In this document: positions 25,266 through 56,481 of the stretch, piece after piece
How the letters are laid out: every line of letters starts with the position of its first letter
Numbering within the stretch: position 1 is the first letter of the stretch
Virus record (IMG/VR): IMGVR_UViG_3300042204_000022
Reading direction: 5' to 3' (one strand)
Origin: a virus
Lineage: Duplodnaviria; Heunggongvirae; Uroviricota; Caudoviricetes
DNA length: 64,000 nucleotides
The notes under the pieces: model-generated
The model's input: only the letters and a program-made list of their open reading frames with translations
Databases searched by the model: none
What the model was told of the DNA's origin: nothing
Translations under genes and position numbers: made by a program

Positions 25266-26180
25266 CTAAAATTCGTAACGAACATCACCCCTCTGTAGGA
25301 CGTTGATTCCATAGTAGTCTCTCAGGTGATTTGCTACACGAGGACGGTCATCAATCCAGAATAGGATGTTATACTTCCCGCGAATATGCTCTTCGATGAA
25401 CTCACCTTTAACGATAGCGTCGTTGCGGTTGTCGTTCTCTGCACGCATCACGAGCTTGTCGTATTCGATGTCGTTTTTCTCTAACCATGCCTCAGTTTCT
25501 GGGCGACATACTGCGTCACGTCCTGAGAAGATAAATAGCTCTACGTCATCTATGCCACGTTTGCCGTGTATAAACTGCACCCCGTCTAATAAGGCTGCAA
25601 CACCGAGGTTAATTTCGTCATTACCAACTTTATGCCATTCATAAGGCGAACGGTTTTTTGGACCGTTTGTGAGACTGCCGTCTAGGTCGCTTACTACCAA
25701 CCATTTGAGGCTTGGGTCGTAGCTAAGAAATGTTGGCAGCGTCTTAACGCTTTCATGAAACATTCTGCGGATAACTTGTTCGCCAACACTGTCTTCACGG
25801 TTCTTATCACGTTCAATCACCTCTGCGAGTGGTACATCTAAGAAACTTTCGATGACCACCTCAGCACCAAATTCTTTTGCGATATTTGTGATTCTGGTGA
25901 CGTGTTTTTGCACAAGGTTTGTGTCTGAAGAGACTACGCTTTTACCTTGTGAAAGTGCTTGCTGAATAAGACGGTCACGTTCTTTGATAACGATTGACTC
26001 ATCGCCACGTTTGTGACTGTACGCACCGTCCTTAAACAGGCGACCATCTTTGCGGATTTCATCTTTTTCTACACGTACACGATTCTCTTTATCTTCTGAT
26101 ACCCATTGACGGGCGAACGTAGTTTTACCAGAAGCCGGTAGACCCCTAGTAATTACTACGGTTAATTTACTATTCTTCAT
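25266..26180 (-). CDS. polynucleotide 5'-kinase / 3'-phosphatase (Pnkp, T4 PseT-like)
   Basis: N-terminal P-loop GLPASGKTTFA; C-terminal HAD phosphatase DLDGSL...FWIDDRP. Confidence 0.75.
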   Translation of the reverse strand: MKNSKLTVVITRGLPASGKTTFARQWVSEDKENRVRVEKDEIRKDGRLFKDGAYSHKRGDESIVIKERDRLIQQALSQGKSVVSSDTNLVQKHVTRITNIAKEFGAEVVIESFLDVPLAEVIERDKNREDSVGEQVIRRMFHESVKTLPTFLSYDPSLKWLVVSDLDGSLTNGPKNRSPYEWHKVGNDEINLGVAALLDGVQFIHGKRGIDDVELFIFSGRDAVCRPETEAWLEKNDIEYDKLVMRAENDNRNDAIVKGEFIEEHIRGKYNILFWIDDRPRVANHLRDYYGINVLQRGDVRYEF

Positions 26181-26412
26181 TTTGATTTTCTCCACGAAGG
26201 GCTACGAGTGTGGTGTCTCTTTTTCTAAGTATAGTATCTACGGTAACTCCGTAAGCGCCTTCAAGTACCTCTGATGCGAGGTTCATTCTTTTTTCTATTT
26301 CTGTAGCTTTTTCGCCAAGCTTTAGTATATGATCTACGATTCCTTCTGGACCCATAGATTCGAGTAGTTCAACTTCTGACAATCCGGGCAATGATTCTTG
26401 GCGTTCTATCAT
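26170..26412 (-). CDS. hypothetical protein
   Basis: ORF. Confidence 0.35.
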   Translation of the reverse strand: MIERQESLPGLSEVELLESMGPEGIVDHILKLGEKATEIEKRMNLASEVLEGAYGVTVDTILRKRDTTLVALRGENQNEE

Positions 26413-27680
26413 TCTACTTTACCTTCCTCTTCCATATCTAGTGCTTCTTCGTCCATCATCTTGCTTTCGTGAGCAAAAAATAGAGGACTCTTCAGCTTAG
26501 CAATATATGGGGCTAGACCTTCGATGCGAATACACACGCCTTCGTCACAAGGGCTTTCCTTGTCTAGCGGTACAGCATTAGCGTAACCACCATGTAGTGT
26601 ATCATGATAATTCGTATCTAACCACTCTTCAGGGTTAAAGTCTTGGTGCTTACCACGCCATAGTTCTGGCACGTGCTTCAAGCCACGATCGCGAGTCCAC
26701 TCTTTGAGCTGATCCCAGCTAAGGTCAGTCATAATACCCTGACCGTTGATCTGTGCGACACGGTAAACGTAGAAGTCGTTTGTCATGTGAGGCACACGGT
26801 AGGTATAGTTCTTCTGAATTGGTACACCATCTGGTGTCCATCCGATTAGCTCGCCATAAACGACGAAGTTTTCAGGAACGAGGTCGTCGTACTTCTTCGC
26901 TGCTTCAGTCCAGATGTCGTGTTCATAGAAGTGCATCTGACGTTCGTTATTCGCATCCTTAATAACACGGTTTGAACCGTACACGTGGTCGTATTCAGTT
27001 TTCTGCACACGTACACCAAGCTTAGATGCGACCTTCTCAACGACAGATAGTTTGCGTGCTACGGGAATGTTAGAGAAACGAAGCAGGGTACCGTGAAGCT
27101 TCTGAGTCACGATGATTTCTGTGTATGGCTTGAACGTATCGAGAACACGGTAGTACTGTGATGTGTCATAGTGACGAGGGAAGAGTTTTTCGTCTACACG
27201 AGTGAACACCTTGTGCTTGTTATTTTCGTGAGCTGGTGTTGATTTGCGCTTGACTTCATACTTCTTACAGATTTCGAAGCCATTCAATTCTTCAAATACG
27301 TCACCGACCTTAAGTTCGCTCAGGTCTACCTTAGTGTAGGCGAGAGATGAAAGTGGCATGAACAACGCATCAGAGCGGTTGCCGCGAAGCTTAATAGCCT
27401 TAACACGACGGTTGTCTTCGATGAATCCAGTCTTGTCTTTGTCTTCGTTAAACTCGTGATGACGAAACAGGTTGTTCTTAGCAGTGTACTCATCGCTAAG
27501 CTGCGTTCCCGCTACGAATACGACACCGACAGTGCCAATCTCAGTTTCCTTAGAAACTACCGCCTGCATACCCAGCAGTGGTGCACCAAGAAGATTGTCA
27601 CTGTTTTCAAGTGGGTTGAGAGCACTAATCTTTACGATCTGTGCTGCATAGTTTATGTTTTCAGGTTCTTTTAGTTTCAC
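26409..27680 (-). CDS. ATP-dependent RNA ligase (Rnl2-like motifs; N-terminal extension + C-terminal nucleotidyltransferase domain, DraRnl/Rnl5-like architecture)
   Basis: motif I TQKLHGT (KxHGT), motif III-like VYGELIGW, motif IV EGVCIRIEG, C-terminal K-rich; NTase domain located in C-terminal half. Confidence 0.65.
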   Translation of the reverse strand: MKLKEPENINYAAQIVKISALNPLENSDNLLGAPLLGMQAVVSKETEIGTVGVVFVAGTQLSDEYTAKNNLFRHHEFNEDKDKTGFIEDNRRVKAIKLRGNRSDALFMPLSSLAYTKVDLSELKVGDVFEELNGFEICKKYEVKRKSTPAHENNKHKVFTRVDEKLFPRHYDTSQYYRVLDTFKPYTEIIVTQKLHGTLLRFSNIPVARKLSVVEKVASKLGVRVQKTEYDHVYGSNRVIKDANNERQMHFYEHDIWTEAAKKYDDLVPENFVVYGELIGWTPDGVPIQKNYTYRVPHMTNDFYVYRVAQINGQGIMTDLSWDQLKEWTRDRGLKHVPELWRGKHQDFNPEEWLDTNYHDTLHGGYANAVPLDKESPCDEGVCIRIEGLAPYIAKLKSPLFFAHESKMMDEEALDMEEEGKVE

Positions 27681-28038: not shown

Positions 28039-28075
28039 GCTTTTATTATATCTGAGCAAAGTGCTTATGTCAACT
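28039..28075 (-). promoter_or_regulatory. sigma70-like promoter, leaderless start (TTGACA-N17-TATAAT-N6-ATG)
   Basis: minus-strand TTGACATAAGCACTTTGCTCAGATATAATAAAAGC-ATG. Confidence 0.6.
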
Positions 28076-28867
28076 AGAGACGTACCAAATTCCCTCAGAT
28101 TGATACGTGAACTTTACGACGATTGATCTATCTGTTGCGGGTATCTCAATTTCAAGATTCTGAAAGCTTGTGAGGTGGGTTACGTGAACTGACCAGTCAA
28201 TATAATTCTTAAACCCTTGCTGACGAAGAAACAGCCCCAAGTTAACATCGGGACCGAGCCCGTTACTTGAGAAGAACCTATGCTGGACATAGTAATCAGC
28301 CCTAATAAGAGCACAATAGAGACCACAAGCATCAATTTCATCTATTGTAGGGTCTTTTGCTTTACTTTCGAGTGAAGTGACGGCTTTCGGTTCAAATACA
28401 TCATTCGCACGCCACGCACCAACATAAAACGAACCCCACCTGCCAAGCTCGACACCAGTAATCATTCCTGCATCTGGTTTTGACTCAGCGATAGCAACGA
28501 GACGCTCTAGGGCGTTGGGGGGTAGAATACCGTCATCTTCAATGCTAAAAACCCAGCTCGGCTCATAATCTTCTGTCACGAGCTCTGGGGCTGGCGGCAG
28601 TATGTCTGCAATCTGGTTGTGTATGTTTGAGATGTTTATGCGACGCTCAGCGATGGTCGCACCGGGACCGCTATTTGTTGATTTGACGCAAAGCTTCTGC
28701 TCAAAATCTAGTTCGAGTATTTTGTTTCTTACAGTTACAAAGTCTTCATCAGAGCCATCAAATATGACTATGAGATTATTCGGTTTATGTGTTTGTTTTA
28801 ATAGGGATTCAATAACTCTATCTAGGTACTTCGTCCTCGACACTGGCAGTATTGTTGTTATCGTCAT
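28070..28867 (-). CDS. glycosyltransferase family 2-like (GT-A)
   Basis: ILPVSRTKYL...VIFDGSDED pattern. Confidence 0.45.
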   Translation of the reverse strand: MTITTILPVSRTKYLDRVIESLLKQTHKPNNLIVIFDGSDEDFVTVRNKILELDFEQKLCVKSTNSGPGATIAERRINISNIHNQIADILPPAPELVTEDYEPSWVFSIEDDGILPPNALERLVAIAESKPDAGMITGVELGRWGSFYVGAWRANDVFEPKAVTSLESKAKDPTIDEIDACGLYCALIRADYYVQHRFFSSNGLGPDVNLGLFLRQQGFKNYIDWSVHVTHLTSFQNLEIEIPATDRSIVVKFTYQSEGIWYVSS

Positions 28868-29519
28868 TTTTGTTTAATTCTATTTTGTTAAATTCCTTGC
28901 CATCGATAATCTCTAGCACGGTTTGATCGCCGATAGGCGTGTTGTCTTGATGTTCTGAGAATGTGTCTATGCACCAAACATTCTCTTGTGGGTTCCAGAT
29001 CGTCTCGCTTGGGTTGTGTCCGATCACCTGTGGACCTGACTTATAGGTAACATACCCGCCGTACTCTCTAGGGCGAGCCCAAATAGGGCTTGTGTCATTC
29101 CATAAACCAGCTACACTTTCATCGCCGTCCCATTCTTCAGTAACGCCAGCATGAGAGAATGTTACTCCATCTAGCTCAAGAATTGGCGGTAGAGATAGAA
29201 GCCATTGTTTGATTTTCTTATTTTCTGGTGCGTTAACAAGTTGGTAAGTCACCCCATTCCATCCACTTGAGCGACCTGCAATTTCTGGGTGAATGTAGGC
29301 GTAGTCATGGTTGCCAATAACAGCGAACACCTTTTTAGGATTAGAATCCATTAGCATCTTTAGTAGACGCCACGTTGCAAGAGATTCACCGGGAGTCGTG
29401 TTCCAGTTATCTGCGTAGTCCCCGCAAAAAACAACAGCATCGTAATCTTCTACGATCTTTTCTACTTTTTCAATCATCCATGACTTTGTGTGTACGTCAC
29501 CTACCGCAAGTATCTTCAT
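28818..29519 (-). CDS. calcineurin-like metallophosphoesterase
   Basis: GDVH...GDYAD...GNHD motifs. Confidence 0.65.
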   Translation of the reverse strand: MKILAVGDVHTKSWMIEKVEKIVEDYDAVVFCGDYADNWNTTPGESLATWRLLKMLMDSNPKKVFAVIGNHDYAYIHPEIAGRSSGWNGVTYQLVNAPENKKIKQWLLSLPPILELDGVTFSHAGVTEEWDGDESVAGLWNDTSPIWARPREYGGYVTYKSGPQVIGHNPSETIWNPQENVWCIDTFSEHQDNTPIGDQTVLEIIDGKEFNKIELNKNDDNNNTASVEDEVPR

Positions 29520-29526
29520 ATCTCTA

Positions 29527-30585
29527 TTATACCTCTAATTTCGCCAAAAGTAAATCCCACTTATGCTTAATTACTTCGTAAGAGTATTGGTCTTTTGCTA
29601 TTTTTCTTGCTGAATCCTTGTACCCGATTCTTAACTCGTCACCTAAGACAGCAAACTGAGTGATTCTACCCGCCAGAGCGGTGTGGTCTGCTGAGTAAAC
29701 ATCAATCATGGTTCTCGCCATAAACTCGGTCTTTTTTTCTGCTGGTACGAGCCAGTAGGGTGGCAAAATCTTATTATTAGGGTCAATGTCGGTCATAATG
29801 ACGGGCAAACCCGCTGCGAGTGCTTCATTCATCGGTAAGCACGCCCCAGCGTACCTGCGAGGTAGAATCATAGCGTCATACCAGCGGTAAAGCTCCCTCT
29901 CATCTGCTGGCTCTTCTCTGTCAATTCTCACCCTTGGGTCATCTGACTCAACTTCAGTTGTTTGCGTTTTAATAACAAGCTCAAAGTCTACCTCAGCAGG
30001 AATAAGTTTAACTGCTGCGAGTAGGTCTTGTGTACCGTTGCGATCTTCATACGTTTTACGGCCAGCGATATGTAGAAACCTAGGCTTACCAAATCTGTGC
30101 CTATTCTGCTGGTAGATGATGTCATACGCCTCTAGGTCTACTGGTGATTTTAGAATAGGTACTTCGCCGAAAATCGTCTCAAGCTTATCGTTGTTCCACT
30201 CAGAGTGATTTGCGAGAATATCTGGTCTAGGTAGAAGTGGACGCTGAAGCCAGTCGCAGAACTCATAATTAGACACCAAAATAGTCTTAACACCAAGCTG
30301 TTTTGCACGAGCAGTCAGTTCATACCCAGCCGTGTAGTCGATTTCGCACGTAACGAGAACATCTATGCCTTCAAGTACCTGATCGAGATTTCTCAAATTG
30401 ATGAAACCGTGTACGCTGTATCTATTGTCTGTGAGACCATCTAATAGCTCTGGATGCTGTTCGTTGCCATTAACCGAACTGAAGTCTATGACGATCAACT
30501 TGTCAGCGTTCAACATCTTAGCGATGTTTCTTGTCTGCACCCCTAAACCAGTAAGGTCTTGACGAACAATAACTCCTATTTTCAT
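29527..30585 (-). CDS. GT-B-fold glycosyltransferase (GT4-like)
   Basis: C-terminal EALAAGLPVIMTD nucleotide-sugar binding motif. Confidence 0.5.
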   Translation of the reverse strand: MKIGVIVRQDLTGLGVQTRNIAKMLNADKLIVIDFSSVNGNEQHPELLDGLTDNRYSVHGFINLRNLDQVLEGIDVLVTCEIDYTAGYELTARAKQLGVKTILVSNYEFCDWLQRPLLPRPDILANHSEWNNDKLETIFGEVPILKSPVDLEAYDIIYQQNRHRFGKPRFLHIAGRKTYEDRNGTQDLLAAVKLIPAEVDFELVIKTQTTEVESDDPRVRIDREEPADERELYRWYDAMILPRRYAGACLPMNEALAAGLPVIMTDIDPNNKILPPYWLVPAEKKTEFMARTMIDVYSADHTALAGRITQFAVLGDELRIGYKDSARKIAKDQYSYEVIKHKWDLLLAKLEV

Positions 30586-31205
30586 GCTAGCCCCCTTCTT
30601 TTTCTCTCTATGTCCAGATCGTAGCCCGCATTATTTTTGTAATTCTTTGTACGCTCTTCGTGTGGGTGCCAATGATGGATAAAAGAGTCTGGGGTGTCCC
30701 TAATCATCGTGTGGTTCAGTTTATACGGTTCGACGAACATGTTATCGTCACCGCCGTATGATTTCCACTCAACCCACTTGTGATCTTCCCATTGCTGTTT
30801 TGTGACCGCTACTTGCCCGAATGAATGAACGCCCCAATCGCCCGTTTTGCGATCTTCGTTCTCCATCCACATTATCGGTGCATAAACCCACCCTTCGGGT
30901 ACTAACCTAACAATTTTATCGATAACTTCTTGCACCACGACCACATCAGCATCTAAGAAGAAGAGAATATCACCCTTTGCGCTCTCTGCTGCAACATTTT
31001 TCGCTTTACCTATTGACCAGTCGCCTTCCCATCTAGCTACGGTGATCTCAAATTCATACGCATGAGCTAGCGCCTCCCAGTTAATGTCGTCTGAGTAGTT
31101 GTCCCCGATAACAACCTCAAAGTCGCCCTTAACACGTCTTAGCGAATCTAGACAACGAATTAAGTTGGCTGCACGGTTCTTTAGTGGGATGCAAATTGAA
31201 ATCAT
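30582..31205 (-). CDS. glycosyltransferase family 2
   Basis: ICIPLKNR...EVVIGDNYSDD...ILFFLDADV (DxD). Confidence 0.7.
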   Translation of the reverse strand: MISICIPLKNRAANLIRCLDSLRRVKGDFEVVIGDNYSDDINWEALAHAYEFEITVARWEGDWSIGKAKNVAAESAKGDILFFLDADVVVVQEVIDKIVRLVPEGWVYAPIMWMENEDRKTGDWGVHSFGQVAVTKQQWEDHKWVEWKSYGGDDNMFVEPYKLNHTMIRDTPDSFIHHWHPHEERTKNYKNNAGYDLDIERKRRGLA

Positions 31206-31912
31206 TTGTGGTTCTCTAGGTAGATGTTACAGCCTCTTTCTGGTACGCCGAACGTGGAGAAGCTGAAGTCACTTAAGAATGGTTTAATAATCGATACGAA
31301 GTCTTCTACATTGTTGTGTTCGTCAAACTCAATCGCATACCTTCTCGCTCTGAGAATTGAAGCTTCACTCGCACCAGTAATCATTGGTAGCTCTGAGCCC
31401 TCGATGTCGCACTTAACGAAGTCAATTTTGTTTTCACTCACTTCTTCCAACAACTCATCGTAGGTGATAATCTCAATCTCTTGAGTATTGACAGCACCCG
31501 TAAGGCGGGAGCTACCTGCGTTGTTCGTGATGCCCGAATAGCCACTAAAGTCAGATACACCCTTTGGTATAACCGTTACCTTAGAGCCTCTTTCGAAAAG
31601 CTGTTTGTTTGCGAGAAGGTTTTTGCGAAGTATCTCAATGTTATTCTCTTCTGGCTCAACCGCATAAACGTGAACCGCTTTTCCTGCTTCGTGAGCGACG
31701 CTCAGAACGAATAGGGTGAAGACACCGATGTTCGCGCCAATATCAAGCACGACAGGATTTTTCTGCTCTAGAAAGTTGCCATCGAACCTATAAATGTTGA
31801 GGTTGAATATTTCTCTAACCACGGCATAGTCATCGTCGCTGTCGGGACGAGTGCTGATTATTATGTCGGTGTATAGACCGGGAATTGTATAATCTCTATA
31901 CTTCATTTTCAA
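31202..31912 (-). CDS. FkbM-family methyltransferase
   Basis: VLDIGANIGVFTL...VYAVEPEENNIEIL. Confidence 0.6.
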   Translation of the reverse strand: MKMKYRDYTIPGLYTDIIISTRPDSDDDYAVVREIFNLNIYRFDGNFLEQKNPVVLDIGANIGVFTLFVLSVAHEAGKAVHVYAVEPEENNIEILRKNLLANKQLFERGSKVTVIPKGVSDFSGYSGITNNAGSSRLTGAVNTQEIEIITYDELLEEVSENKIDFVKCDIEGSELPMITGASEASILRARRYAIEFDEHNNVEDFVSIIKPFLSDFSFSTFGVPERGCNIYLENHK

Positions 31913-32849
31913 ATACCGTGTTTAGAATTGTTTGCCAGCGGGTAACGTAGGTATGGTCACGCTTCGTTCTCAGGAAACCTGCATGACGAATCGCCTCACG
32001 TTCTTCGTCGTGGGTAAGATAATAGTCAATTTTCTCTTTAAGGTCGTCAAGATTTCCGTGCTCGTAAAGAACAATTTCTTTACCATCTTCGTACTGGTCT
32101 TCAACTCCTTTAATGTTGGGGAAAATCTGAAATGCGCCACGCCCAGGCTGCTCAAAGAGACGGTCGCTAAAGTAATATGGGTACTCGAAGTTGAGATTAA
32201 GCGTGTCACCAACCGCAATCTTCGCATTGCGATAAATCTGATTAAGCGGTAGACCTCTAATCTGACCAACATCTCCGTCGTTGCCGATATGAATAAAACG
32301 CTGACCGTATGTCTTCTTTAGAAAATCAACCAACTGTGGGCGGTACGGGTACTCTGGGTGGTACTTTCTACTTCCTGTGAATACGATGTCGTATCTGACA
32401 CGTTGCTGTGGTAGCATCTGCACTTCTTCGCCGAATACACCAGCCGGTAGATAAACTCCCTTAGTGTCGGTGTTTTCATTCATCCAGTCAGCCATTAACT
32501 TGTCTACTGTGAAGAAATAATGAAGACTCTTGTAATAGTCGTCGTTCGTAATATCTTTTTCACGATCAAGACCGAACCATAGGTCGAGGTGATAAGTGAT
32601 GAAGGGAATACCCTTATCTTTGAGTGCATCTGAAACCATTTGCCACGTCATAAAGCCGGGGGTGTTCCACCCGTGCGTGTGAATCGCAACAACGAGATCG
32701 CTTCTAAGACCGTGCTCTAGTAGTTGTTCCTTCGTCGTGTGCGATTCTTGAAGCCTTACTACCTCATGCCCCATTGAAGATAGGCTACGGGCGTGGTGAG
32801 ACTCACTGGTAAAATCGACAGAAAAATTGCCTAATATAACTATCTTCAT
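31896..32849 (-). CDS. CgeB-like / GT1-like glycosyltransferase
   Basis: C-terminal GRGAF...EAIRHAGF...TW pattern; weak. Confidence 0.4.
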   Translation of the reverse strand: MKIVILGNFSVDFTSESHHARSLSSMGHEVVRLQESHTTKEQLLEHGLRSDLVVAIHTHGWNTPGFMTWQMVSDALKDKGIPFITYHLDLWFGLDREKDITNDDYYKSLHYFFTVDKLMADWMNENTDTKGVYLPAGVFGEEVQMLPQQRVRYDIVFTGSRKYHPEYPYRPQLVDFLKKTYGQRFIHIGNDGDVGQIRGLPLNQIYRNAKIAVGDTLNLNFEYPYYFSDRLFEQPGRGAFQIFPNIKGVEDQYEDGKEIVLYEHGNLDDLKEKIDYYLTHDEEREAIRHAGFLRTKRDHTYVTRWQTILNTVFENEV

Positions 32850-33089
32850 CTACTTCTCGTCTACGGGAACAACCCTCGCCGTTCTCGCCTCTGTATCAAA
32901 TTCAACAGTGATATATTCTCCGTACTCCCACCATTCGCCTGCGACATCAAGAGCCTTCTCTACACGTAACTCACGAACCGCTTCTTGTTCGTCTTCAGCG
33001 AGACCGCTATTCTTTAGCTCTTCGTCTACGGCTTCTTCTACTGCGTCTTGAAGAACGTCTGTGTCTTTAATAAATACTTTTACTTTCAT
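32850..33089 (-). CDS. hypothetical acidic protein
   Basis: ORF. Confidence 0.4.
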   Translation of the reverse strand: MKVKVFIKDTDVLQDAVEEAVDEELKNSGLAEDEQEAVRELRVEKALDVAGEWWEYGEYITVEFDTEARTARVVPVDEK

Positions 33090-33349
33090 GCTAACTCCTT
33101 TGGCTTTTGGGTGCTCGTGCCTTTAATACCGCATTGAACTGCGAGCGACATTTGGTCTACTGGTGATGAATAATCGTTTGGTCCCGATTTAAGAATTGCT
33201 TGGCGAAACTGAGTGATGCCCTGACGATTCCAGTTATTGTACTGGTTGTAGGATACGTACTGACCACCGCCGACGCTAACGACGACCATTTCTGGGTACA
33301 AGACGTAGGTTAGTTTTCCCCTATTGATGATTTTTGGTTTTTCTTTCAT
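33086..33349 (-). CDS. hypothetical protein
   Basis: ORF. Confidence 0.4.
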   Translation of the reverse strand: MKEKPKIINRGKLTYVLYPEMVVVSVGGGQYVSYNQYNNWNRQGITQFRQAILKSGPNDYSSPVDQMSLAVQCGIKGTSTQKPKELA

Positions 33350-33369
33350 ACACTCAGATTAGCATAACC

Positions 33370-34182
33370 TTAAACATTTACAAACTCTGGTTTTACGTCT
33401 CCCTGACTCTCTGTTATCGCCTTGCGATCACTAAAGTAGCCATAACACTCGTTACACTGGTACTGGCGGTAGCGAGAAGTGTTTGTCGTGCGATACGCCT
33501 TAACCCTGAAACTATATGAACCACAGCGAGGGCAGGAATCCCACTCTCCCGAAATACGAGATAAACTTGGGTGCGAGTGCATAAACGAACGCATCTTGAG
33601 GTAGATTCCCGTCGTGACCCTTACGTCTTGCTCGTTATAAATCTTGAGCTTCTTGTAGGCTTTAGGATCGTTATTGATGAAACAATCCTCCCACAAATCT
33701 CCGACCTTGAATTTTGTCTTTTTGCCGACACCCAATTCTTCGCCCAAGTTGTCTAGGGTGTTGTTGTTGAACCTGAAGTAACGCTTAGCGATCTTCTTGG
33801 TGTCGATTGACTTAGTAGGTGGAATCGGCTCTAGACCGTTATGGATAAAGAACGTATTCGCCATCTTGATGTCGAAATTGTCTGAGTTCTGACCGAGAAT
33901 AATGTCTGCGTCAGAAAGAACCTTGTGTAGTTCGAGTGCGAGCAGTTTGTCGTTGTGCGGGTCAACCTTAAAGGTGTCCATGTCAGCGAGACTAAGCGAG
34001 TGAATCTTCTTCTGCCCTACCACCTGCCACGCAAAGCTCATGAGCACTTGGCGATCTTTTACTTTTAATATTCCCGTCTCCCATGTTGGCGGGTAGAAAT
34101 AGCCTAACGCCGGGCTGACCTCTAGGTCAAAGCTAATGATGCAAGGCTTTTTGATTGCTTGGATTGGTTCGTCATGTTGCAA
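33370..34182 (-). CDS. RNase H-fold 3'-5' exonuclease-like protein with C-terminal zinc ribbon
   Basis: ISFDLE (DxE), QNSDNFDI, YNEQDV acidic motifs; CPRCG...CNEC. Confidence 0.4.
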   Translation of the reverse strand: MQHDEPIQAIKKPCIISFDLEVSPALGYFYPPTWETGILKVKDRQVLMSFAWQVVGQKKIHSLSLADMDTFKVDPHNDKLLALELHKVLSDADIILGQNSDNFDIKMANTFFIHNGLEPIPPTKSIDTKKIAKRYFRFNNNTLDNLGEELGVGKKTKFKVGDLWEDCFINNDPKAYKKLKIYNEQDVRVTTGIYLKMRSFMHSHPSLSRISGEWDSCPRCGSYSFRVKAYRTTNTSRYRQYQCNECYGYFSDRKAITESQGDVKPEFVNV

Positions 34183-34236
34183 GATTTTGTTTCTCCATAT
34201 CTGTTCCTCCTATAATAACCATAAGCGTTTTGAATG

Positions 34237-35133
34237 TCAAGACTTTTTCCTAATTTTCACACTTTCCTTGAGGATTTTAGGGGCGACGTGCTTCCACTTG
34301 ACTGTATGATGAACCCTGAACGCATCCGTATTCACCCTATCGCCCCTGTTATGAAGAACTCCGATCTTAACACCAGAAGGGTGGCTCATAACCGAGTAGA
34401 AGGATTTAACATACGTGCCAAACTTTTTGTACATATCGGTGTTACCGCTATTGTTACTTTGGGTTTGCTTCTGGTTGATTGCGATGAATCCTGTCGTCAA
34501 GAAGAGCACGCCTCTACTGGATAGGGTGGTGTATGCAACAACATCGTCGTTCATTGTGCCCGAAAAGTCGAATGGTCTCTCGGTATCGATAATCCATGAA
34601 TTCATGCCTTTTCTTCTATACTGATCGACCGCCATTTTTGATTGACCGCCCCCAATATAGTCGCCTGACTGAGCCATGCAGATGGACTGAAGTCTTGGTG
34701 TTGATTTTAGGTAATCAAGCATTATTTCGAACACTTTGTCAAGTGCATTATTGTCTTCAGCGAGCATTTTTGAAGAATATTCGATCTGAGGATTCATTCT
34801 CCACCTAACTGAGTCGTAATCGTCTTCAAACTCAGCGAAATACCTGTAGCCAAGACCCTGTGCAATGTCAATACACGCTTGACGAGCGTAAACGATTGAT
34901 TTATGAAAGTTGAAGTTGTCCATAGAGTCGGTTAACCCCATGTAGGTCTTCTTGTTGAATACGACAATCTTGTCTTCGCCGAAAATCTCTTTATAGCGGT
35001 CTATAGTGGGGTCTAAATCATCAAGTACGATGTACCAATCCCCCGTATAGCCAAACCTTTTAAGAGTATTGACAGTAAATACGTTATCTGGTCTGCCATG
35101 AGACAAAATTAGAACACAAAAATTACTCTTCAC
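34237..35133 (-). CDS. putative nucleotide-sugar transferase (GT-A-like)
   Basis: ILSHGRPDN...LDDLD pattern; weak. Confidence 0.3.
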   Translation of the reverse strand: MKSNFCVLILSHGRPDNVFTVNTLKRFGYTGDWYIVLDDLDPTIDRYKEIFGEDKIVVFNKKTYMGLTDSMDNFNFHKSIVYARQACIDIAQGLGYRYFAEFEDDYDSVRWRMNPQIEYSSKMLAEDNNALDKVFEIMLDYLKSTPRLQSICMAQSGDYIGGGQSKMAVDQYRRKGMNSWIIDTERPFDFSGTMNDDVVAYTTLSSRGVLFLTTGFIAINQKQTQSNNSGNTDMYKKFGTYVKSFYSVMSHPSGVKIGVLHNRGDRVNTDAFRVHHTVKWKHVAPKILKESVKIRKKS

Positions 35134-39356: not shown

Positions 39357-40006
39357 ATATTCAGTACGGCTAGATGTAAAGCTTTGCGACCATTAAGTTC
39401 GCTGAGATGATACATATCTACACACTAGCCGTATTCGCGAGAGATAACGCTCTTTTTCTTTTTGTAGACTCTGTATCTATCTACTCTCATTATACATCAA
39501 GCTTATGCTTTGTAAAGTTCAAAATGGTGGAGCTGCGGGGTACTGCCCCCCGGTCCTCATAAAATCCAACTAGACTTCTACAGGTTTAGTTTCATTTATC
39601 CGTGAAACGACGGGATGTTTGCGGGGATCTCCTGCCAGGGCACTTTTTACGTTAAGTCCGAAACGTAAAGTTTGAGTTCGCTTTTGGCGAAACTCTTGTT
39701 CATTCTTCTCAATAGTTTGTGATACAGCCTGATCTCTTTGCGTCCAGAGCGTTTATTCTCCTTCTTCCCAGAGGGGCAATATCTACAGTAAGACAGACTA
39801 GCTGCCATAACGCGTCTCTTAAACCAGTGCGTAAGCTGGCTGAAGGCTAAACATTGCCTTCACTTTTGCGAATAGTTTTGCAATTAAAATAGTTTTAAGT
39901 CTTACGACTACCTGCGATCTAATTTTCAATATACAAGTCGAATCTTGGTCAACCCCATATAACTATTATATACCATAAGCATAAATAAAAAAAGTCTAAA
40001 AAAGTG

Positions 40007-40042
40007 TTGACATTGAAAAACATAAGCTGTATAGTGGGTTAT
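40007..40042 (+). promoter_or_regulatory. sigma70-like promoter (TTGACA-N17-TATAGT)
   Basis: TTGACATTGAAAAACATAAGCTGTATAGT upstream of 40059. Confidence 0.55.
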
Positions 40043-40058
40043 ATAAGGAGAAAAAGAT

Positions 40059-41501
40059 ATGAGCTTTTTAGACGAATTGCAAAAGAATACAAACAAGAAC
40101 ACTCGCACACTCAATGGTGCGGTAACTAACGATAGTACCCTAGATGCTAATCTAGACTACTTCTCACTCGCAGGAGCGATGCGTAATCGTGTAAACGATA
40201 CACGCCGCCTTTTCGCTAAGGCTTTCGCAGCCGACCCGCAGACAGCTTTGCGTACACTATTCTATCTACGTGACATTCGTGGTGGTCAGGGTGAGCGTGA
40301 AGTCTTTCGTGCTGGTCTTCAGGAGCTAGAAGATATTTCGCCAGAAACCGCTAACTTGGTAATCCAAAACAACTGGATCGGTGAGTATGGCCGTTACGAT
40401 GATCTATTATCATTCCGCAACGGCGAAACACTCGGCGCTCTTGCAGAATTCATTCGTCACCAGCTCGATGCCGACACTGACGCTATGGCTGATGGTGATC
40501 CAGTATCGTTGCTTGCTAAGTGGCTACCTTCAGAAAACGCATCAAGCAAGACTACTCGTGGTCAGGCTGTTGCACTAGCTAAGTTGCTTGGCTTGAAGCC
40601 AAGTCAGTACCGCCGTAAGATCGTTGCTCTTCGTAAGTACATCAAGTTGCTTGAACAGCAGATGTCTAAGAACGAATGGTCTGAAATTGACTACTCTAAG
40701 ATTCCTTCACAGGCTGGTCGCAAGCACGTTAAGGCGTTTATGCGTCATGACGAAGAACGCTACCGTGACTTCTTGAGCAAGGTAGAAAAGGGTGAAGCTA
40801 AGATCAATACAAGCACTCTATACACATACGAAGTGTTTGACATGGTTCGCAGTGGTCACGACCAAGCTGCAAACGCAATGTGGGCTAACCTACCAGATTA
40901 CACAAACGGTACAGACGCACTTGTTCTCGCCGACGTATCTGGTTCAATGAGCGGTCGTCCTATGAGCGTATCAGTATCACTTGCCCTTTACTTCGCAGAA
41001 CGTAACAAGGGTGTGTTCAGTAACAAGTTTATGACCTTCAGCGAACGCCCAGCGGTTGTAGATGTAGTTGGTAACTCTCTCACAGATAAGCTTCGTTTCA
41101 TCGAAAGCCGTGACTGGGGTATGAGCACCAACCTTGAAGCTGCATTTGACGCTATTCTGTCAGCAGCCGTAGCATCTGGTCAGGGTCAAGACGGTATGCC
41201 TAAGACTCTATATGTCATCTCAGACATGGAGTTCAATCAGGCTGTATCAAACCCAAGCGAAAGCATCTTCGACAACGCACAGCGTAAGTTCAAAGAAAAG
41301 GGTCTTGAGCTACCACACGTAGTGTTCTGGAACGTCAACTCATGGCAAGACCAAGCACCAGCGACAAAATTTGACAATCGTGTTACACTTATCTCAGGTT
41401 CGAGTCAGAGCACATTCCAGCACGCCGTGAACGGCAAGACACCAATCGAGCTCATGCTAGATGTAGTGAACAGCGAACGCTACGCACAAATCGTACTTTA
41501 A
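40059..41501 (+). CDS. vWA-domain protein with N-terminal helical domain (DUF2828/TROVE-Ro60-like architecture)
   Basis: MIDAS motif LVLADVSGSMSG; ~280-aa N-terminal domain; immediately followed by tRNA-like ncRNA array. Confidence 0.55.
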   Translation: MSFLDELQKNTNKNTRTLNGAVTNDSTLDANLDYFSLAGAMRNRVNDTRRLFAKAFAADPQTALRTLFYLRDIRGGQGEREVFRAGLQELEDISPETANLVIQNNWIGEYGRYDDLLSFRNGETLGALAEFIRHQLDADTDAMADGDPVSLLAKWLPSENASSKTTRGQAVALAKLLGLKPSQYRRKIVALRKYIKLLEQQMSKNEWSEIDYSKIPSQAGRKHVKAFMRHDEERYRDFLSKVEKGEAKINTSTLYTYEVFDMVRSGHDQAANAMWANLPDYTNGTDALVLADVSGSMSGRPMSVSVSLALYFAERNKGVFSNKFMTFSERPAVVDVVGNSLTDKLRFIESRDWGMSTNLEAAFDAILSAAVASGQGQDGMPKTLYVISDMEFNQAVSNPSESIFDNAQRKFKEKGLELPHVVFWNVNSWQDQAPATKFDNRVTLISGSSQSTFQHAVNGKTPIELMLDVVNSERYAQIVL

Positions 41502-41564
41502 TAGATTAGACGCTTACAGCAACCATAAAAAAATTCAATTTTGCATTTGAAAAAGCTCATGCGT

Positions 41565-41647
41565 CTAGGTACATTTAGAACATTTTAGTCTCCAACAGCA
41601 ACACTACAAAAACTTTCAACTATTCAATGAAACAAATAAGTGAGACT
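41565..41647 (+). ncRNA. tandem ncRNA module 1 (minimal; closing helix AGTCTC/GAGACT + CAACAGCAAC motif)
   Basis: CTAGGTAC leader, helix 41587-92/41642-47. Confidence 0.4.
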
Positions 41648-41652
41648 AGGTA

Positions 41653-41784
41653 CATAGAAATTTAACAATTAGACCCAACCAGCAACTATCTACTTTCCAC
41701 TTTCAATTGGAGTGATGTCGGTTCGAATCCGGCTGGAGCTTCGGCTCTATCGTCTAACGGTAGGACACTATTTATTTGGGTCTA
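41653..41784 (+). ncRNA. tandem ncRNA module 2: circularly permuted tRNA-Glu(UUC)-like domain
   Basis: closing helix TAGACCC/GGGTCTA; anticodon arm (CUUUCAA)-T arm GGTTCGAATCC-acceptor 3' TGGAGCT-2 nt-acceptor 5' GGCTCTA-D arm TCGTCTAACGGTAGGAC; acceptor strands pair 7/7. Confidence 0.5.
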
Positions 41785-41788
41785 GGTA

Positions 41789-41931
41789 CATTGACATATT
41801 TAGTCACTTCCAGCAACTATATCGCATAGGGAGCGAGATCATGGTGGTTCGAGTCCACCCGCCCTGAACATGACAGTGTGTAGCCGAATTGGTTTAGGCG
41901 CTCGCACGCAACAACAGTGACTAGGTACTTT
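41789..41931 (+). ncRNA. tandem ncRNA module 3: permuted tRNA-like domain
   Basis: closing helix AGTCACT/AGTGACT; T arm GGTGGTTCGAGTCCACC, acceptor 3' CGCCCTG-A-6 nt-acceptor 5' CAGTGTG-D arm. Confidence 0.45.
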
Positions 41932-41936
41932 GAAAA

Positions 41937-42120
41937 TTTAGGCGCAACCAGCAATTATATATTTGGATGTTAACCACGTGGTCGCAGGTTCAAGTCCTGC
42001 CTCCCCGACCAAATACTGTTCATTAAGCCTCGACTCATGCGGATGGAGCTATGAGCCATCAGGGTGGACAGTACCGGCGGGGAGTAGCTCAGTTGGTAGA
42101 GCACGTATTATTTGCGCCTA
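41937..42120 (+). ncRNA. tandem ncRNA module 4: permuted tRNA-like domain with encoded CCA
   Basis: closing helix TAGGCGC/GCGCCTA; T arm GCAGGTTCAAGTCCTGC-CTCCCCG-A-CCA ... CGGGGAG-TAGCTCAGTTGGTAGAGC. Confidence 0.45.
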
Positions 42121-42234
42121 GTATTAAAATCTTCAGTGTTTTAACGACGATATTGGTGATGGGTTTGAGTCTCATTCCAGTGCACGCTGGCTAGTATCGT
42201 CTTTTAAGCACTGAAAAGTAATAAAGGAGAGAGA

Positions 42235-42861
42235 ATGTCCAAAAAGAGCGTAGAGAAGAAGCTCAAAGGTGGGTTCTTCAGCTTCAATCAGAAGATTCCT
42301 AGTGGGATAACACTCACAAGCGAAGAGACCAAAGAGGTCATCGAGCTATGGAAAGAAGACGTAGAGGTCATAAAGACCAACACCGAGAAGCTTAACAGCG
42401 CCGACACAGCAATCGAGAGAAATCTGACTAGACTGCCAGAAAGTCTCTCTCAAGTTAGCAACGCCAGAAACGATGCTATACGTTACTTTAAGATCACCAA
42501 AGACCCGATTAAGCGTCGTGAGTGGGCTCGCAGGTTGATAGTTGCAGATAATGCACATAAGTCAATCAAAGCATCTCAAGACCGCATGAACGTCACCAGA
42601 GCGAGAATTCAGTCAGTCGTCAAAGACGCTGCACTCGAAAAACTAGCACTAGACGTGAGAATTTCAGAAGCAGAAGCCTACGTGAAGATGGGCGAGGGTC
42701 TTCAACTAGTAGGTGAGATGCTTGTCTCGGCGAGAACAAGGGCAAAGAGAGCTGATATGGAGTTCTCGACGCTTGAGTTTAACACCGAACAGCTAGAAGC
42801 CCACGTCGTAAACTATAAAGATGAAAAACTAATCGCAGAAGCGGAGAAAATACTAGGTTAA
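42235..42861 (+). CDS. hypothetical coiled-coil protein
   Basis: ORF with GGAG RBS. Confidence 0.5.
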   Translation: MSKKSVEKKLKGGFFSFNQKIPSGITLTSEETKEVIELWKEDVEVIKTNTEKLNSADTAIERNLTRLPESLSQVSNARNDAIRYFKITKDPIKRREWARRLIVADNAHKSIKASQDRMNVTRARIQSVVKDAALEKLALDVRISEAEAYVKMGEGLQLVGEMLVSARTRAKRADMEFSTLEFNTEQLEAHVVNYKDEKLIAEAEKILG

Positions 42862-55500: not shown

Positions 55501-55571
55501 ACTCTTGGTTGGATTCGAACCAACGACCTACGGGTTTTCGACCCGTTGCTCTACCGCTGAGCTACAAATTC
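55501..55571 (-). pseudogene. chimeric tRNA-like element with non-complementary acceptor strands
   Basis: good D arm, anticodon arm (loop TCGAAAA, C33) and T arm GTTGGTTCGAATCCAAC but 5' GAATTTG vs 3' CAAGAGT do not pair. Confidence 0.4.
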
Positions 55572-56403: not shown

Positions 56404-56406
56404 GGT

Positions 56407-56481
56407 TGGCGATGGAGGTGCTGCCCCTCCGACCTCTTGAGTATCAGACAAGTGCTCTACTGCTGAGCTAATCGCCAAAAT
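56407..56481 (-). tRNA. tRNA-Ile(GAT) with non-canonical T-loop GGCAGCA
   Basis: perfect acceptor TGGCGAT/ATCGCCA, anticodon loop CTGATAC; T-loop identical to that of 46578-46654. Confidence 0.45.

What the first reader, a model, noticed from the sequence alone, without database searches (positions are those of the whole stretch)
40007..42234. vWA/MIDAS protein followed by four tandem tRNA-like ncRNA modules with circularly permuted tRNA domains (candidate Ro60/Y-RNA-like system)
- The 730-bp ORF-free stretch 41501-42235 is organised into four repeating units.
- Each unit starts with (G/T)CTAGGTAC(A/T)T, then a 6-7 nt strand that pairs perfectly with a strand at the unit's 3' end: AGTCTC/GAGACT, TAGACCC/GGGTCTA, AGTCACT/AGTGACT, TAGGCGC/GCGCCTA.
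- Each has a conserved CCAGCAAcTAT motif just inside the 5' helix strand.
- Units 2-4 carry tRNA-like domains in permuted order: anticodon arm/T arm/acceptor 3' strand, then a short linker, then acceptor 5' strand/D arm.
- In unit 2 the two acceptor strands (TGGAGCT vs GGCTCTA) pair 7/7, and the anticodon loop (CUUUCAA) and D arm (TCGTCTAACGGTAGGAC) both look tRNA-Glu-like, so the halves belong together.
- In unit 4 CTCCCCG-A-CCA pairs 7/7 with the downstream CGGGGAG-TAGCTCAGTTGGTAGAGC.
- An acceptor stem closed by a loop with the ends emerging near the anticodon stem is the architecture of bacterial Y-RNA tRNA mimics (YrlA). Those are co-encoded with Ro60/Rsr, a TROVE+vWA protein.
- The gene immediately upstream (40059-41501) has a MIDAS vWA domain after a ~280-aa helical domain.
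- The same genome carries an RNA ligase, a Pnkp and a CCA-adding enzyme.
- Permuted tRNA genes or Y-RNA-like arrays have, to my knowledge, not been described in this arrangement.
Basis: partly seen in the sequence, partly recalled or inferred. Interest (0 to 1): 0.88.

Follow-up and report, generated by a model that had tools for sequence, protein, structure and literature searches.

The report
Phage Ro60-like protein with Y-RNA-like array
A phage gene for a protein shaped like the RNA-quality-control factor Ro60 is followed by five small structured RNAs, three of them rearranged tRNA look-alikes, and I could find no description of this RNA family although it sits next to the same gene in hundreds of phages and bacteria.

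Summary

- **RNA array.** The gap 41501-42235 holds five modules, not four.
- **Module design.** Each has a 7-9 bp closing helix, then an invariant single-stranded CAGCAA, then a variable insert.
- **tRNA mimics.** M2-M4 carry a tRNA-like domain in the order V hairpin, T arm, capped acceptor stem, D arm. This is the architecture of bacterial YrlA Y RNAs.
- **Covariation.** It is strong: 17 of 22 pairs show compensatory changes.
- **Association.** 69 of 80 viral loci and 50 of 62 bacterial or archaeal genome-contig loci carry modules beside the gene, at roughly 8-30 times the background density.
- **Prior knowledge.** No Rfam family reaches its threshold and no searchable paper describes these RNAs.
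- **Side finding.** The stem plus UUACAGCAA design equals that of Dictyostelium Class I RNAs.

Binding of the RNAs to the protein, their expression and their function are inferred, not shown.

The parts
40007..40035 (+). sigma-70-like promoter TTGACA-17-TATAGT upstream of the gene
   Evidence: It matches 11 of 12 consensus positions. No terminator-like site is found on the + strand up to 42400, so the gene and the RNA array are probably one transcript. This is an inference.
40059..41501 (+). Ro60-fold protein, 480 aa: N-terminal helical DUF2828 domain plus C-terminal vWA (DUF7788) with an intact MIDAS site
41507..41567 (+). Module M0, 61 nt: helix TAGACGC/GCGTCTA, motif UUACAGCAA at 41514-41522, no tRNA-like insert.
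   Evidence: The covariance model R1 scores it at 50.5 bits, but it was one of the sequences used to build R1. Orthologues occupy the same first position in L018-L026.
41586..41648 (+). Module M1, 63 nt: helix TAGTCTC/GAGACTA, motif CAACAGCAA, no tRNA-like insert
   Evidence: R1 scores it at 48 bits, but it was a training member. Orthologues carry compensated helices such as TAGTCACA/TGTGACTA and TAGTCCC/GGGACTA.
41670..41784 (+). Module M2, 115 nt: helix TAGACCCAA/TTGGGTCTA, CCAGCAA, V hairpin 41695-41712, T arm 41717-41733, UUCG-capped acceptor hairpin 41734-41749, D arm 41750-41766
   Evidence: The de-permuted sequence is called tRNA-Glu(ttc). Orthologues have fully compensated acceptor and T stems.
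41801..41923 (+). Module M3, 123 nt: helix TAGTCACT/AGTGACTA, UCCAGCAA, V hairpin 41822-41836, T arm 41843-41859, acceptor hairpin 41860-41880 (6 of 7 pairs), D arm 41881-41901
   Evidence: The L018 orthologue has a perfect 7/7 acceptor stem, CACCCTG/CAGGGTG. ARAGORN's identity call is ambiguous.
41939..42120 (+). Module M4, 182 nt: helix TAGGCGCAA/TTGCGCCTA, CCAGCAA, V hairpin 41964-41976, T arm 41984-42000, acceptor 3' strand plus encoded ACCA 42001-42011, 66-nt insert 42012-42077, acceptor 5' strand 42078-42084, D arm 42085-42103
   Evidence: The de-permuted sequence is called tRNA-Asn(gtt or att). Orthologues replace the insert with a UUCG tetraloop (L020) or a short loop (L025). The L020 orthologue matches the Rfam YrlA core at 44.9 bits.
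42131..42218 (+). Strong three-way-junction hairpin between M4 and the next ORF (42235); not part of the CAGCAA family and of unknown role
   Evidence: The stretch 42121-42240 that contains it folds at -37 kcal/mol. It is identical in L018 and absent in L019, L022 and L026.

Best explanation
This is a phage ribonucleoprotein locus of the Ro60/Y-RNA type, built from a divergent protein lineage and an RNA family I could not find described.

**What is shown.**
- The gene encodes a ring-of-helical-repeats plus vWA/MIDAS protein with the Ro60 fold (DUF2828 family).
- Five small RNA modules lie immediately downstream on the same strand.
- Each module has a 7-9 bp helix joining its 5' and 3' ends. 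An unpaired (U)UA-CAGCAA-(U/A)Y stretch follows the 5' strand, and a conserved G follows the 3' strand.
- M2, M3 and M4 add a tRNA mimic with T arm, closed acceptor stem and D arm. The helix that closes the module sits where the anticodon stem would be. This is the same order as in bacterial YrlA.

**What is inferred.**
1. The modules are transcribed with the gene from the promoter at 40007 and are cut into separate stable RNAs.
2. The helix plus CAGCAA motif is the handle that the Ro-like protein binds. It would be the counterpart of the GNCGAA or GGUCCGA Ro-binding element of Y RNAs.
3. The variable insert is the working end. The tRNA mimic would recruit tRNA-handling enzymes or an exonuclease to the protein.
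4. M4 has a 7-bp acceptor stem, an encoded ACCA and a long leader-like insert. It is probably cut by RNase P and trimmed, as M. smegmatis YrlA is, giving a two-piece RNA with a free CCA end.
5. The particle serves RNA surveillance or repair, or counters a host defence, during infection. It would act alongside the phage's own roughly 25 tRNAs, tmRNA, RNA ligase, PNKP and CCA-adding enzyme.

For: **Modules in the window.** Five occur in 735 nt against 0.04 expected by chance.

**Closing helix.** It is 100% paired across 21 modules from 12 sources (the window and 11 loci), and all 7 pairs show double changes. Slid controls pair at 31-41%. Pairing here was a selection criterion, so this figure is biased.

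**tRNA-like domain.** These helices were not used to pick the modules.
- 99.3% of cells are paired.
- 17 of 22 pairs are compensatory.
- 0 of 500 shuffles reach the observed value.
- Slid controls pair at 26-46%.

**Association with the gene.**
- 69 of 80 IMG/VR loci have at least one strict module on the gene strand.
- Density is 0.71 per kb upstream and 0.42 per kb downstream, against 0.05 per kb in the gene body and on the opposite strand. The peak lies within 750 nt of the gene.
- 50 of 62 bacterial or archaeal genome-contig loci also have modules, at 1.6 per kb upstream against 0.055 per kb.

**Host range.** Modules occur in phages of Mycobacterium, E. coli (Felixounavirus), Listeria, Staphylococcus, Campylobacter, Bacillus and Vibrio.

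**Stable-RNA setting.** In phage JH2 and a Bacillus phage the modules sit between genuine tRNA genes, 11-14 nt away in JH2, on the same strand.

**YrlA likeness.** The Rfam YrlA core hits at 44.9 bits, E 6.5e-9, and at 21.7 bits. YrlA's element order, and the RNase P cut and CCA addition in M. smegmatis, are documented (Chen 2014, PMC4201824).

**Hint of protein binding.** In Vibrio phage R10Z a mini-module in the 5' leader holds the ribosome-binding site and start codon of the gene. This looks like an autoregulatory operator.

**Function hints from the literature.**
- Bas63 gp130 is described as Ro60-like in structure, lies upstream of the tRNA cluster and counters the Ppl defence (PMC11482910). 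That it is a DUF2828 homologue is my inference.
- LeBron gp53 is toxic when overexpressed (PMC13148394).
- Thermus phage phiLo Ro60 binds phage Y-like RNAs and host PNPase (PMC12135203).
Against: - There are no expression, end-mapping or binding data. The RNA-protein pairing rests on gene adjacency and analogy.
- No sequence-level link to TROVE or Ro60 was found.
- No module reaches Rfam's YrlA gathering score of 69 bits, and the window's own modules give no YrlA hit even at E up to 10.
- The YrlA and Y-RNA Ro-binding motif is absent.
- In most genomes the modules lie upstream, in the gene's leader. That also fits a purely cis-regulatory role.
- 11 of 80 and 12 of 62 loci show no strict module.
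- The anticodon-like loop is not conserved among orthologues, so a specific tRNA identity is unlikely.
- The biological role is a guess drawn from neighbouring genes and from a preprint result on the likely Bas63 homologue.
Confidence: 0.72

Rival explanations
1. The modules are cis-acting elements of the gene's own mRNA. They could be tandem operator sites for autoregulation or mRNA-stabilising structures, rather than separate trans-acting RNAs.
For: In most loci they lie in the 5' leader directly before the ribosome-binding site. In Vibrio phage R10Z one module encloses the RBS and the ATG. No promoter or terminator of their own is evident in the window.
Against: In the window and in mycobacteriophages they lie after the stop codon. 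In JH2 and a Bacillus phage they are interleaved with tRNA genes up to 2 kb from the gene. Up to seven or eight copies occur, with elaborate covarying tRNA-like domains that an operator would not need. The two roles are not exclusive.
Confidence: 0.12
2. The region holds decayed or rearranged tRNA genes, that is, tRNA pseudogenes or recombination debris from the phage's large tRNA set, with no function of its own.
For: The phage carries about 25 tRNA genes. The inserts contain recognisable T, D and acceptor elements.
Against: Two of the five modules have no tRNA part yet share the same frame. Orthologues at 60-83% protein identity keep every helix through compensatory changes. The same frame recurs in unrelated phage lineages. 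The inserts are not close copies of the phage's own tRNAs.
Confidence: 0.02
3. The RNAs are real and stable but work with a partner other than the adjacent protein. Candidates are a host RNA-binding protein, RNase P, the CCA-adding enzyme, or the phage RNA ligase and PNKP. The DUF2828 protein would then have an unrelated, for example vWA-mediated, role.
For: Adjacency is the only link to the protein. In Dictyostelium the RNAs of similar design were shown to bind an RRM protein, Rnp1A/CIBP (PMC7919456). tRNA mimics are by nature substrates of tRNA enzymes (Chen 2014).
Against: The association with this one gene family holds across very different genomes whose other genes differ: 69 of 80 and 50 of 62 loci, on the same strand and within 750 nt. 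The protein has the fold of a known small-RNA-binding ring. Ro60 genes are likewise flanked by their Y RNAs (Chen 2014).
Confidence: 0.12

Closest known systems
Bacterial and phage Ro60 (Rsr, TROVE) with YrlA-type Y RNAs (Rfam RF02553; Chen et al. 2014; phiLo Ro60 with Yrl1 and Yrl2, 2025)
   Same: Both have a ring-plus-vWA/MIDAS protein fold. Small RNAs are encoded on the same strand next to the gene, often several. Each RNA has a 5'/3' stem and a short motif after the 5' strand. The tRNA mimic has the order V, T, capped acceptor, D. A 7-bp acceptor version is suited to RNase P cutting and CCA addition. RNA repair genes lie in the neighbourhood.
   Different: The protein belongs to a different sequence family (DUF2828/DUF7788, no TROVE hit). 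The recognition motif is CAGCAA, not GNCGAAN0-1G. Most modules (median 61 nt) have no tRNA part at all. Arrays reach 7-8 copies and can be interleaved with tRNA genes. Scores stay below YrlA's gathering threshold.
Dictyostelium Class I RNAs (Rfam RF01414; Kjellin et al. 2021)
   Same: Both are about 42-65 nt long with a 6-bp stem joining the ends. The motif C-UUACAGCAA follows the 5' strand directly, then comes a G-poor variable region and a short tail containing G after the 3' strand. This was the top Rfam match for two Staphylococcus phage modules, aligned in register over the full model.
   Different: Class I RNAs are eukaryotic, with dispersed genes that have their own promoter. They are reported as unique to dictyostelids, and their known direct binder is an RRM protein. 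Scores are 22.4 bits against a gathering score of 41.5. Whether dictyostelids have a DUF2828 protein was not testable here.
Circularly permuted tRNA genes (Cyanidioschyzon merolae) and two-piece (permuted) tmRNA
   Same: The 3' half (T arm, acceptor 3' strand, CCA) is encoded before the 5' half (acceptor 5' strand, D arm). Weak hits to permuted tmRNA models were seen.
   Different: Here the break lies between the D arm and the anticodon-like (V) hairpin, and it is bridged by a dedicated helix carrying a protein-binding motif. No functional anticodon identity is conserved. These are not decoding tRNAs.

Membership tests
Ro60 / TROVE protein family | Sequence match to the TROVE domain (Pfam PF05731) or to solved Ro60 sequences | tested here: not met
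   A Pfam scan at E up to 1 lists DUF2828, DUF7788 and vWA families but no TROVE. A profile of 34 homologues searched against all PDB sequences finds no Ro60.
Ro60 / TROVE protein family | Helical-repeat ring followed by a vWA domain (the Ro60 fold) | tested here: met
Ro60 / TROVE protein family | MIDAS motif in the vWA domain | tested here: met
   D292-x-S294-x-S296, T357 and D389 are invariant in 34 close and 11 distant homologues.
Ro60 / TROVE protein family | Binds Y RNAs and misfolded RNAs | not testable with these tools
   This needs immunoprecipitation or gel-shift experiments.
YrlA Y RNA (Rfam RF02553) | Score at or above the Rfam gathering threshold of 69 bits | tested here: not met
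   The window region 41400-42300 gives no YrlA hit at E up to 10. The best related hits are 44.9 bits (L020 orthologue of M4, model positions 23-86 only) and 21.7 bits (Faith1).
YrlA Y RNA (Rfam RF02553) | tRNA-like domain in the order V stem-loop, T arm, acceptor stem-loop, D arm, enclosed by a 5'/3' stem | tested here: met
   See the folds and coordinates. RNAalifold and pair counts give 17 of 22 compensatory pairs. The order follows Chen 2014.
YrlA Y RNA (Rfam RF02553) | GNCGAAN0-1G motif near the 5' end (the proposed Ro60 contact) | tested here: not met
   An invariant CAGCAA takes that position in the 332 modules selected on that motif. The outer part of the YrlA model, which carries the motif, does not align.
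YrlA Y RNA (Rfam RF02553) | Encoded within about 4 kb of the Ro60 gene on the same strand | tested here: met
   This holds for the Ro60-fold DUF2828 gene. Modules peak within 750 nt on the same strand.
Dictyostelium Class I RNA (Rfam RF01414) | Score at or above the gathering threshold of 41.5 bits | tested here: not met
   Two Staphylococcus phage modules score 22.4 bits (E about 0.05, full model). A Faith1 module scores 18.9 bits.
Dictyostelium Class I RNA (Rfam RF01414) | Short stem joining the 5' and 3' ends, with an 11-nt motif CCUUACAGCAA directly after the 5' strand (invariant U3, C6, C9, A10, A11) | tested here: inconclusive
   The design and the CAGCAA core are the same. C at -4 occurs in 68% and A at -1 in 68% of 332 modules, and many read C/N-UUACAGCAA exactly. 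U3 is not conserved in the phage set. Common descent and convergence cannot be told apart.
Dictyostelium Class I RNA (Rfam RF01414) | Dictyostelid genes with an upstream DUSE promoter element | tested here: not met
   The modules are phage or bacterial, tandem, and lie within operons.
Genuine (decoding) tRNA gene | Recognised as a tRNA by ARAGORN or the Rfam tRNA model in genomic order | tested here: not met
   No tRNA is called in 41500-42235 or in the orthologous arrays. A call appears only after artificial de-permutation.

The most novel reading that the evidence does not exclude
The stem-plus-(UUA)CAGCAA RNAs may be the universal partners of DUF2828 Ro60-fold proteins in viruses, bacteria, archaea and eukaryotes. 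The abundant Class I RNAs of dictyostelid amoebae, thought unique to that group and of unknown mechanism, would then belong to the same family. They would in effect be the 'Y RNAs' of a second, previously unrecognised Ro-like ribonucleoprotein lineage. [quoted passage not shown] That protein could be checked directly for a DUF2828/vWA architecture.
Probability: 0.25. Interest if true: 0.9.

Novelty: new variant of a known kind. Interest (0 to 1): 0.78.

Why it matters
- **A second Ro-like lineage.** Ro60 and Y RNAs are a classic but still poorly understood RNA-surveillance particle. A second protein lineage with its own RNA family would give a large comparative set for learning how such particles recognise their RNAs and what the tRNA mimic is for. 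The set already holds 332 distinct modules with natural variation in the working end.
- **Tractable model phages.** The gene occurs in well-studied phages: Felix O1-like coliphages, Listeria and Staphylococcus therapy phages, Campylobacter phages and cluster L mycobacteriophages. It is annotated there only as 'RNA-binding protein', and the RNAs are not annotated at all.
- **A concrete RNA candidate for a known phenotype.** A protein that is probably a homologue (Bas63 gp130) has been reported to counter a bacterial defence system (Ppl). These RNAs are the obvious missing component of that mechanism.
- **A testable hypothesis for Dictyostelium.** The match to Class I RNAs offers a hypothesis for a long-standing orphan RNA class.

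Tried and rejected
- **Rfam on the window.** The gathering run gave only tmRNA and tRNAs. An E-value scan of 41400-42300 gave only weak permuted-tmRNA-type hits and no YrlA or Y_RNA hit.
- **Phage DNA search.** Megablast of the locus and of 25 kb of the window against 50,697 phage records found nothing. The phage has no close sequenced relative, and its host was not identified. The closest GTDB hits are 54% identical, in Mycolicibacterium.
- **Covariance model R1.** Built from short modules, it finds short modules specifically but misses the long tRNA-like ones. A pattern-plus-pairing script was used instead.
- **Sequence-level link to Ro60.** None was found.
- **AlphaFold database search.** This was unavailable, so the eukaryotic distribution of the fold could not be read.
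- **Dictyostelium protein.** Attempts to learn what DDB_G0281243 is, or whether Dictyostelium has a DUF2828 protein, failed. Literature and supplement searches gave nothing, and the only vWA hit there is an unrelated Ras-vWA protein.
- **Bas63 gp130.** I tried to confirm that it is the DUF2828 homologue by guessing an accession and hit a different phage. The identity stays an inference from gene position and description.
- **Decoy idea.** I considered that the anticodon-like loops mimic specific tRNAs as decoys for anticodon nucleases. I set this aside because the loop sequence is not conserved among orthologues.
- **Tail hairpin 42131-42218.** Only one identical orthologue exists, so there is no covariation information.
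Full report
**Setting.** The window is part of a large tRNA-rich phage or prophage.
- It carries 23 ARAGORN tRNAs plus two more Rfam tRNA hits, all on the minus strand between 45.6 and 56.6 kb. A tmRNA lies at 39525-39956(-).
- It also encodes a terminase, an integrase, a PolyA_pol/CCA-adding family enzyme (20572-21693, -), a PNKP (25266-26195, -) and an RNA ligase (26409-27680, -).
- No near relative exists among 50,697 phage records.

**The protein.**
- ORF 40059-41501(+) is preceded by a near-consensus promoter, TTGACA-17-TATAGT, at 40007-40035.
- It has a DUF2828 N-terminal domain and a DUF7788/vWA C-terminal domain, and it matches PHROG 850 'RNA-binding protein' over its full length.
- It is 56% identical to the 'Ro-like RNA binding protein' of cluster L mycobacteriophages. 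Homologues occur in 704 phage records from Escherichia, Salmonella, Vibrio, Listeria, Staphylococcus, Campylobacter, Enterococcus, Bacillus and Aeromonas hosts.
- More than 7,900 homologues were found in the large protein collection.
- There is no sequence-level hit to TROVE or to solved Ro60 proteins.
- A confident AlphaFold2 model (pLDDT 89, pTM 0.88) has Ro60 proteins as its only full-length structural matches.
  - Foldseek: 1yvp_B, E 3.4e-6.
- The MIDAS residues are invariant.

**The RNA array in the window.** The gap 41501-42235 holds five modules, not four.

| Module | Coordinates | Length | tRNA-like insert |
|---|---|---|---|
| M0 | 41507-41567 | 61 nt | no |
| M1 | 41586-41648 | 63 nt | no |
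| M2 | 41670-41784 | 115 nt | yes |
| M3 | 41801-41923 | 123 nt | yes |
| M4 | 41939-42120 | 182 nt | yes |

- Each begins UAG(A/U/G)C and has a 7-9 bp helix closing its ends. CAGCAA lies 1-3 nt after the 5' strand. Each ends ...CUA, followed by G.
- Five such modules in 735 nt compare with 0.04 expected in dinucleotide shuffles, with at most 1 in 500 shuffles. The rest of the 64-kb window has only background-level stray matches.

**The tRNA-like inserts.**
- M2-M4 contain, in order: a short hairpin with a 7-8 nt loop, a T arm with a GGUUCRAnUCC loop, an acceptor-type stem closed on itself, and a D arm.
- M2's acceptor stem is capped by a UUCG tetraloop.
- M4's 7-bp stem is followed by an encoded ACCA and a 66-nt insert before the 5' strand.
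- Joining the halves in normal order makes ARAGORN call tRNA-Glu(ttc) for M2 and tRNA-Asn(gtt or att) for M4. M3 is ambiguous. Many junctions were tried, so the amino-acid identities are soft.
- The inserts are not copies of the phage's own tRNAs.

**Comparative evidence from close relatives.**
- Nine loci were read (L018-L026; L021 is a second contig carrying the same protein as L020), at 62-82% protein identity. Each has 4-6 modules in the same order after the gene.
- Their M2- and M4-type modules keep every helix through compensatory change.
  - Acceptor stems: TGGAGC/GCTCTA, TGCGAC/GTCGTA, CTCCCCG/CGGGGAG, CACGGTC/GACTGTG and GCCCTC/GAGGGT.
- M4's long insert is replaced by a UUCG tetraloop in L020 and by a short loop in L025.
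- On 13 tRNA-like modules, RNAalifold recovers four helices.
  - Closing helix, 7 bp.
  - T arm, 5 bp.
  - Acceptor hairpin, 6 bp.
  - D arm, 4 bp.
- 99.3% of cells pair and 17 of 22 pairs carry double changes. No shuffle of 500 reaches the observed values, and slid controls pair at 26-46%.
- Only the closing helix had been used to pick the modules, so the other three helices are unbiased support.
- For 21 short modules from the window and 11 loci, the closing helix is 100% paired with double changes at all 7 pairs. Pairing was a selection criterion there.

**A widespread family tied to this gene.**
- The same frame lies next to the gene in many phages.
  - Mycobacteriophage Faith1: three modules downstream, the middle one tRNA-like.
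  - E. coli phage JH2, a Felixounavirus: at least four modules.
  - Listeria LMSP-25: three modules upstream.
  - A Staphylococcus phage: three modules downstream.
  - Campylobacter NCTC12673: two modules upstream.
  - Bacillus vB_BcoS-136: seven modules.
- In JH2 and the Bacillus phage the modules sit between genuine tRNA genes, 11-14 nt apart in JH2, on the same strand. No tRNA finder calls them.
- In 80 further IMG/VR loci, 69 have at least one strict module on the gene strand.
  - Density is 0.71 per kb upstream and 0.42 per kb downstream, against 0.05 per kb in the gene body and on the other strand.
  - The peak lies within 750 nt of the gene.
- In 62 bacterial or archaeal genome-contig loci, 50 have modules, at 1.6 per kb upstream against 0.055 per kb.
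- Over 118 distinct modules from the viral loci the median length is 61 nt, and about 13-19% contain a T loop.
- Over 332 distinct modules from the viral and genome-contig loci together, further positions are conserved.
  - C at -4 occurs in 68% and A at -1 in 68%.
  - G is nearly absent for several nucleotides after the motif.
  - G follows the 3' strand in 80%.

**Relation to YrlA.**
- Chen et al. 2014 define YrlA by a GNCGAAN0-1G motif near the 5' end and by V, T, acceptor and D stem-loops. M. smegmatis YrlA, with its 7-bp acceptor stem, is cut by RNase P and receives CCA.
- The module layout is the same.
- Rfam's YrlA model matches the tRNA-like core of the L020 orthologue of M4 at 44.9 bits, E 6.5e-9, over model positions 23-86. 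It matches the Faith1 module end to end at 21.7 bits.
- Nothing reaches the gathering score of 69, the window's own modules are not hit, and the Ro-binding motif is replaced by CAGCAA.
- I therefore do not file these as YrlA. I read them as a sister design: the same tRNA-mimic module on a different protein-binding handle, matching a different Ro-fold protein lineage.

**Mechanism.**
- Shown: the Ro60 fold of the protein, the module architecture, its structural conservation and its tight linkage to the gene.
- Inferred:
  - co-transcription from the 40007 promoter and processing into single RNAs;
  - binding of the helix plus CAGCAA handle by the protein;
  - recruitment of tRNA-recognising enzymes or an exonuclease by the insert;
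  - RNase P cutting and 3' trimming of M4 to give a two-piece RNA with a CCA end;
  - a role in RNA surveillance, RNA repair or counter-defence.
- One hint of binding is a 47-nt mini-module in the 5' leader of the Vibrio phage R10Z gene. It holds the ribosome-binding site and places the start codon in its 3' strand, like an autoregulatory operator.
- Hints of function come from the literature.
  - Bas63 gp130 is Ro60-like in structure, lies upstream of the tRNA cluster and counters the Ppl defence. The authors guessed that some neighbouring 'tRNA genes' are Y RNAs (PMC11482910). That gp130 is a DUF2828 homologue is my inference, and a check by accession failed.
  - LeBron gp53 is toxic when overexpressed.
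  - phiLo Ro60 binds phage Y-like RNAs and host PNPase.

**Side finding.**
- Among 4,227 Rfam families, the best matches for two Staphylococcus phage modules were Dictyostelium Class I RNA. Both scored 22.4 bits at E about 0.05, over the full model and in register.
- The Faith1 module also matched at 18.9 bits.
- Class I RNAs are GUUGAC-C-UUACAGCAA-...-GUCAAC-UG. That is a short terminal stem, the same motif in the same place and a G-containing tail.
- They are reported as unique to dictyostelids and their mechanism is unknown (PMC7919456).
- One of four proteins pulled down with a Class I RNA, DDB_G0281243, has no known function.
- No paper connects Class I RNAs with Y RNAs.
- I could not test whether dictyostelids encode a DUF2828 protein. 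Homology, convergence on a similar binding site and coincidence all remain open.

**Novelty and limits.**
- The protein's Ro likeness is already in database annotations, and Ro60 with Y RNAs in phages is known.
- No Rfam family reaches threshold for the CAGCAA module family, and it appears in no paper I could search. Subscription-only literature was not searchable.
- Everything about expression, binding and function remains to be shown experimentally.

Noticed in passing
L014 4027-4163; L001 5529-5575; compare window 41507-41567: Rfam's Dictyostelium Class I RNA model is the top-scoring family for two Staphylococcus phage modules (22.4 bits, full length, in register). The Class I design, a 6-bp terminal stem plus C-UUACAGCAA, equals the phage module design. 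This may link an orphan amoebal RNA class to Ro-like particles.
   Followed up: partly
window 42131-42218: A strong three-way-junction hairpin lies between the last module and the next ORF (the 42121-42240 stretch folds at -37 kcal/mol). It contains a T-arm-like hairpin but no CAGCAA. It is identical in L018 and absent in other relatives. Its role is unknown.
   Followed up: partly
window 39525-39956 (-): A phage-encoded tmRNA (Rfam 72 bits) lies directly upstream of the Ro-like gene on the opposite strand. ARAGORN did not call it.
   Followed up: no
window 55505-55567 (-) and 56406-56477 (-): Two Rfam tRNA hits (55.4 and 51.2 bits) inside the tRNA arrays are not called by ARAGORN. The first matches only model positions 5-66, so it may be a truncated or unusual tRNA.
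   Followed up: no
L016 2455-2500 (Vibrio phage vB_ValM_R10Z): A 47-nt mini-module (GACATT / UUACAGCAA / AATGTC) in the 5' leader of the DUF2828 gene encloses the ribosome-binding site. The ATG start codon lies within its 3' strand. This suggests translational autoregulation by the protein.
   Followed up: partly
L012 4082-5500 (E. coli phage JH2); L017 1-2500 (Bacillus phage vB_BcoS-136): Modules are interleaved with genuine tRNA genes on the same strand. In JH2 the gaps are only 11-14 nt. They are therefore probably released by the tRNA-processing machinery. They are unannotated in both records.
   Followed up: partly
L024 4284-4399: One module has its tRNA-like parts in the normal order (hairpin, D arm, anticodon-like arm, T arm) inside the same closing helix and CAGCAA frame. 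The frame therefore accepts different insert topologies.
   Followed up: no
L019 4506-4692 versus window 41939-42120: The long insert in the acceptor loop of M4-type modules has an unrelated sequence in L019 and is absent in L020 and L025. It behaves like a variable leader or trailer rather than a conserved element.
   Followed up: partly
window 28070-35133 (-): A cluster of glycosyltransferases includes a TET-associated glycosyltransferase (34237-35133). This suggests DNA base hypermodification in this phage.
   Followed up: no
L171 1293-1412: A module (GAGGTGC / CAGCAA / GCACCTC) lies upstream of a DUF2828 gene on a contig binned to a Promethearchaeota (Asgard) MAG. It could be an archaeal virus or a binning artefact.
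   Followed up: no
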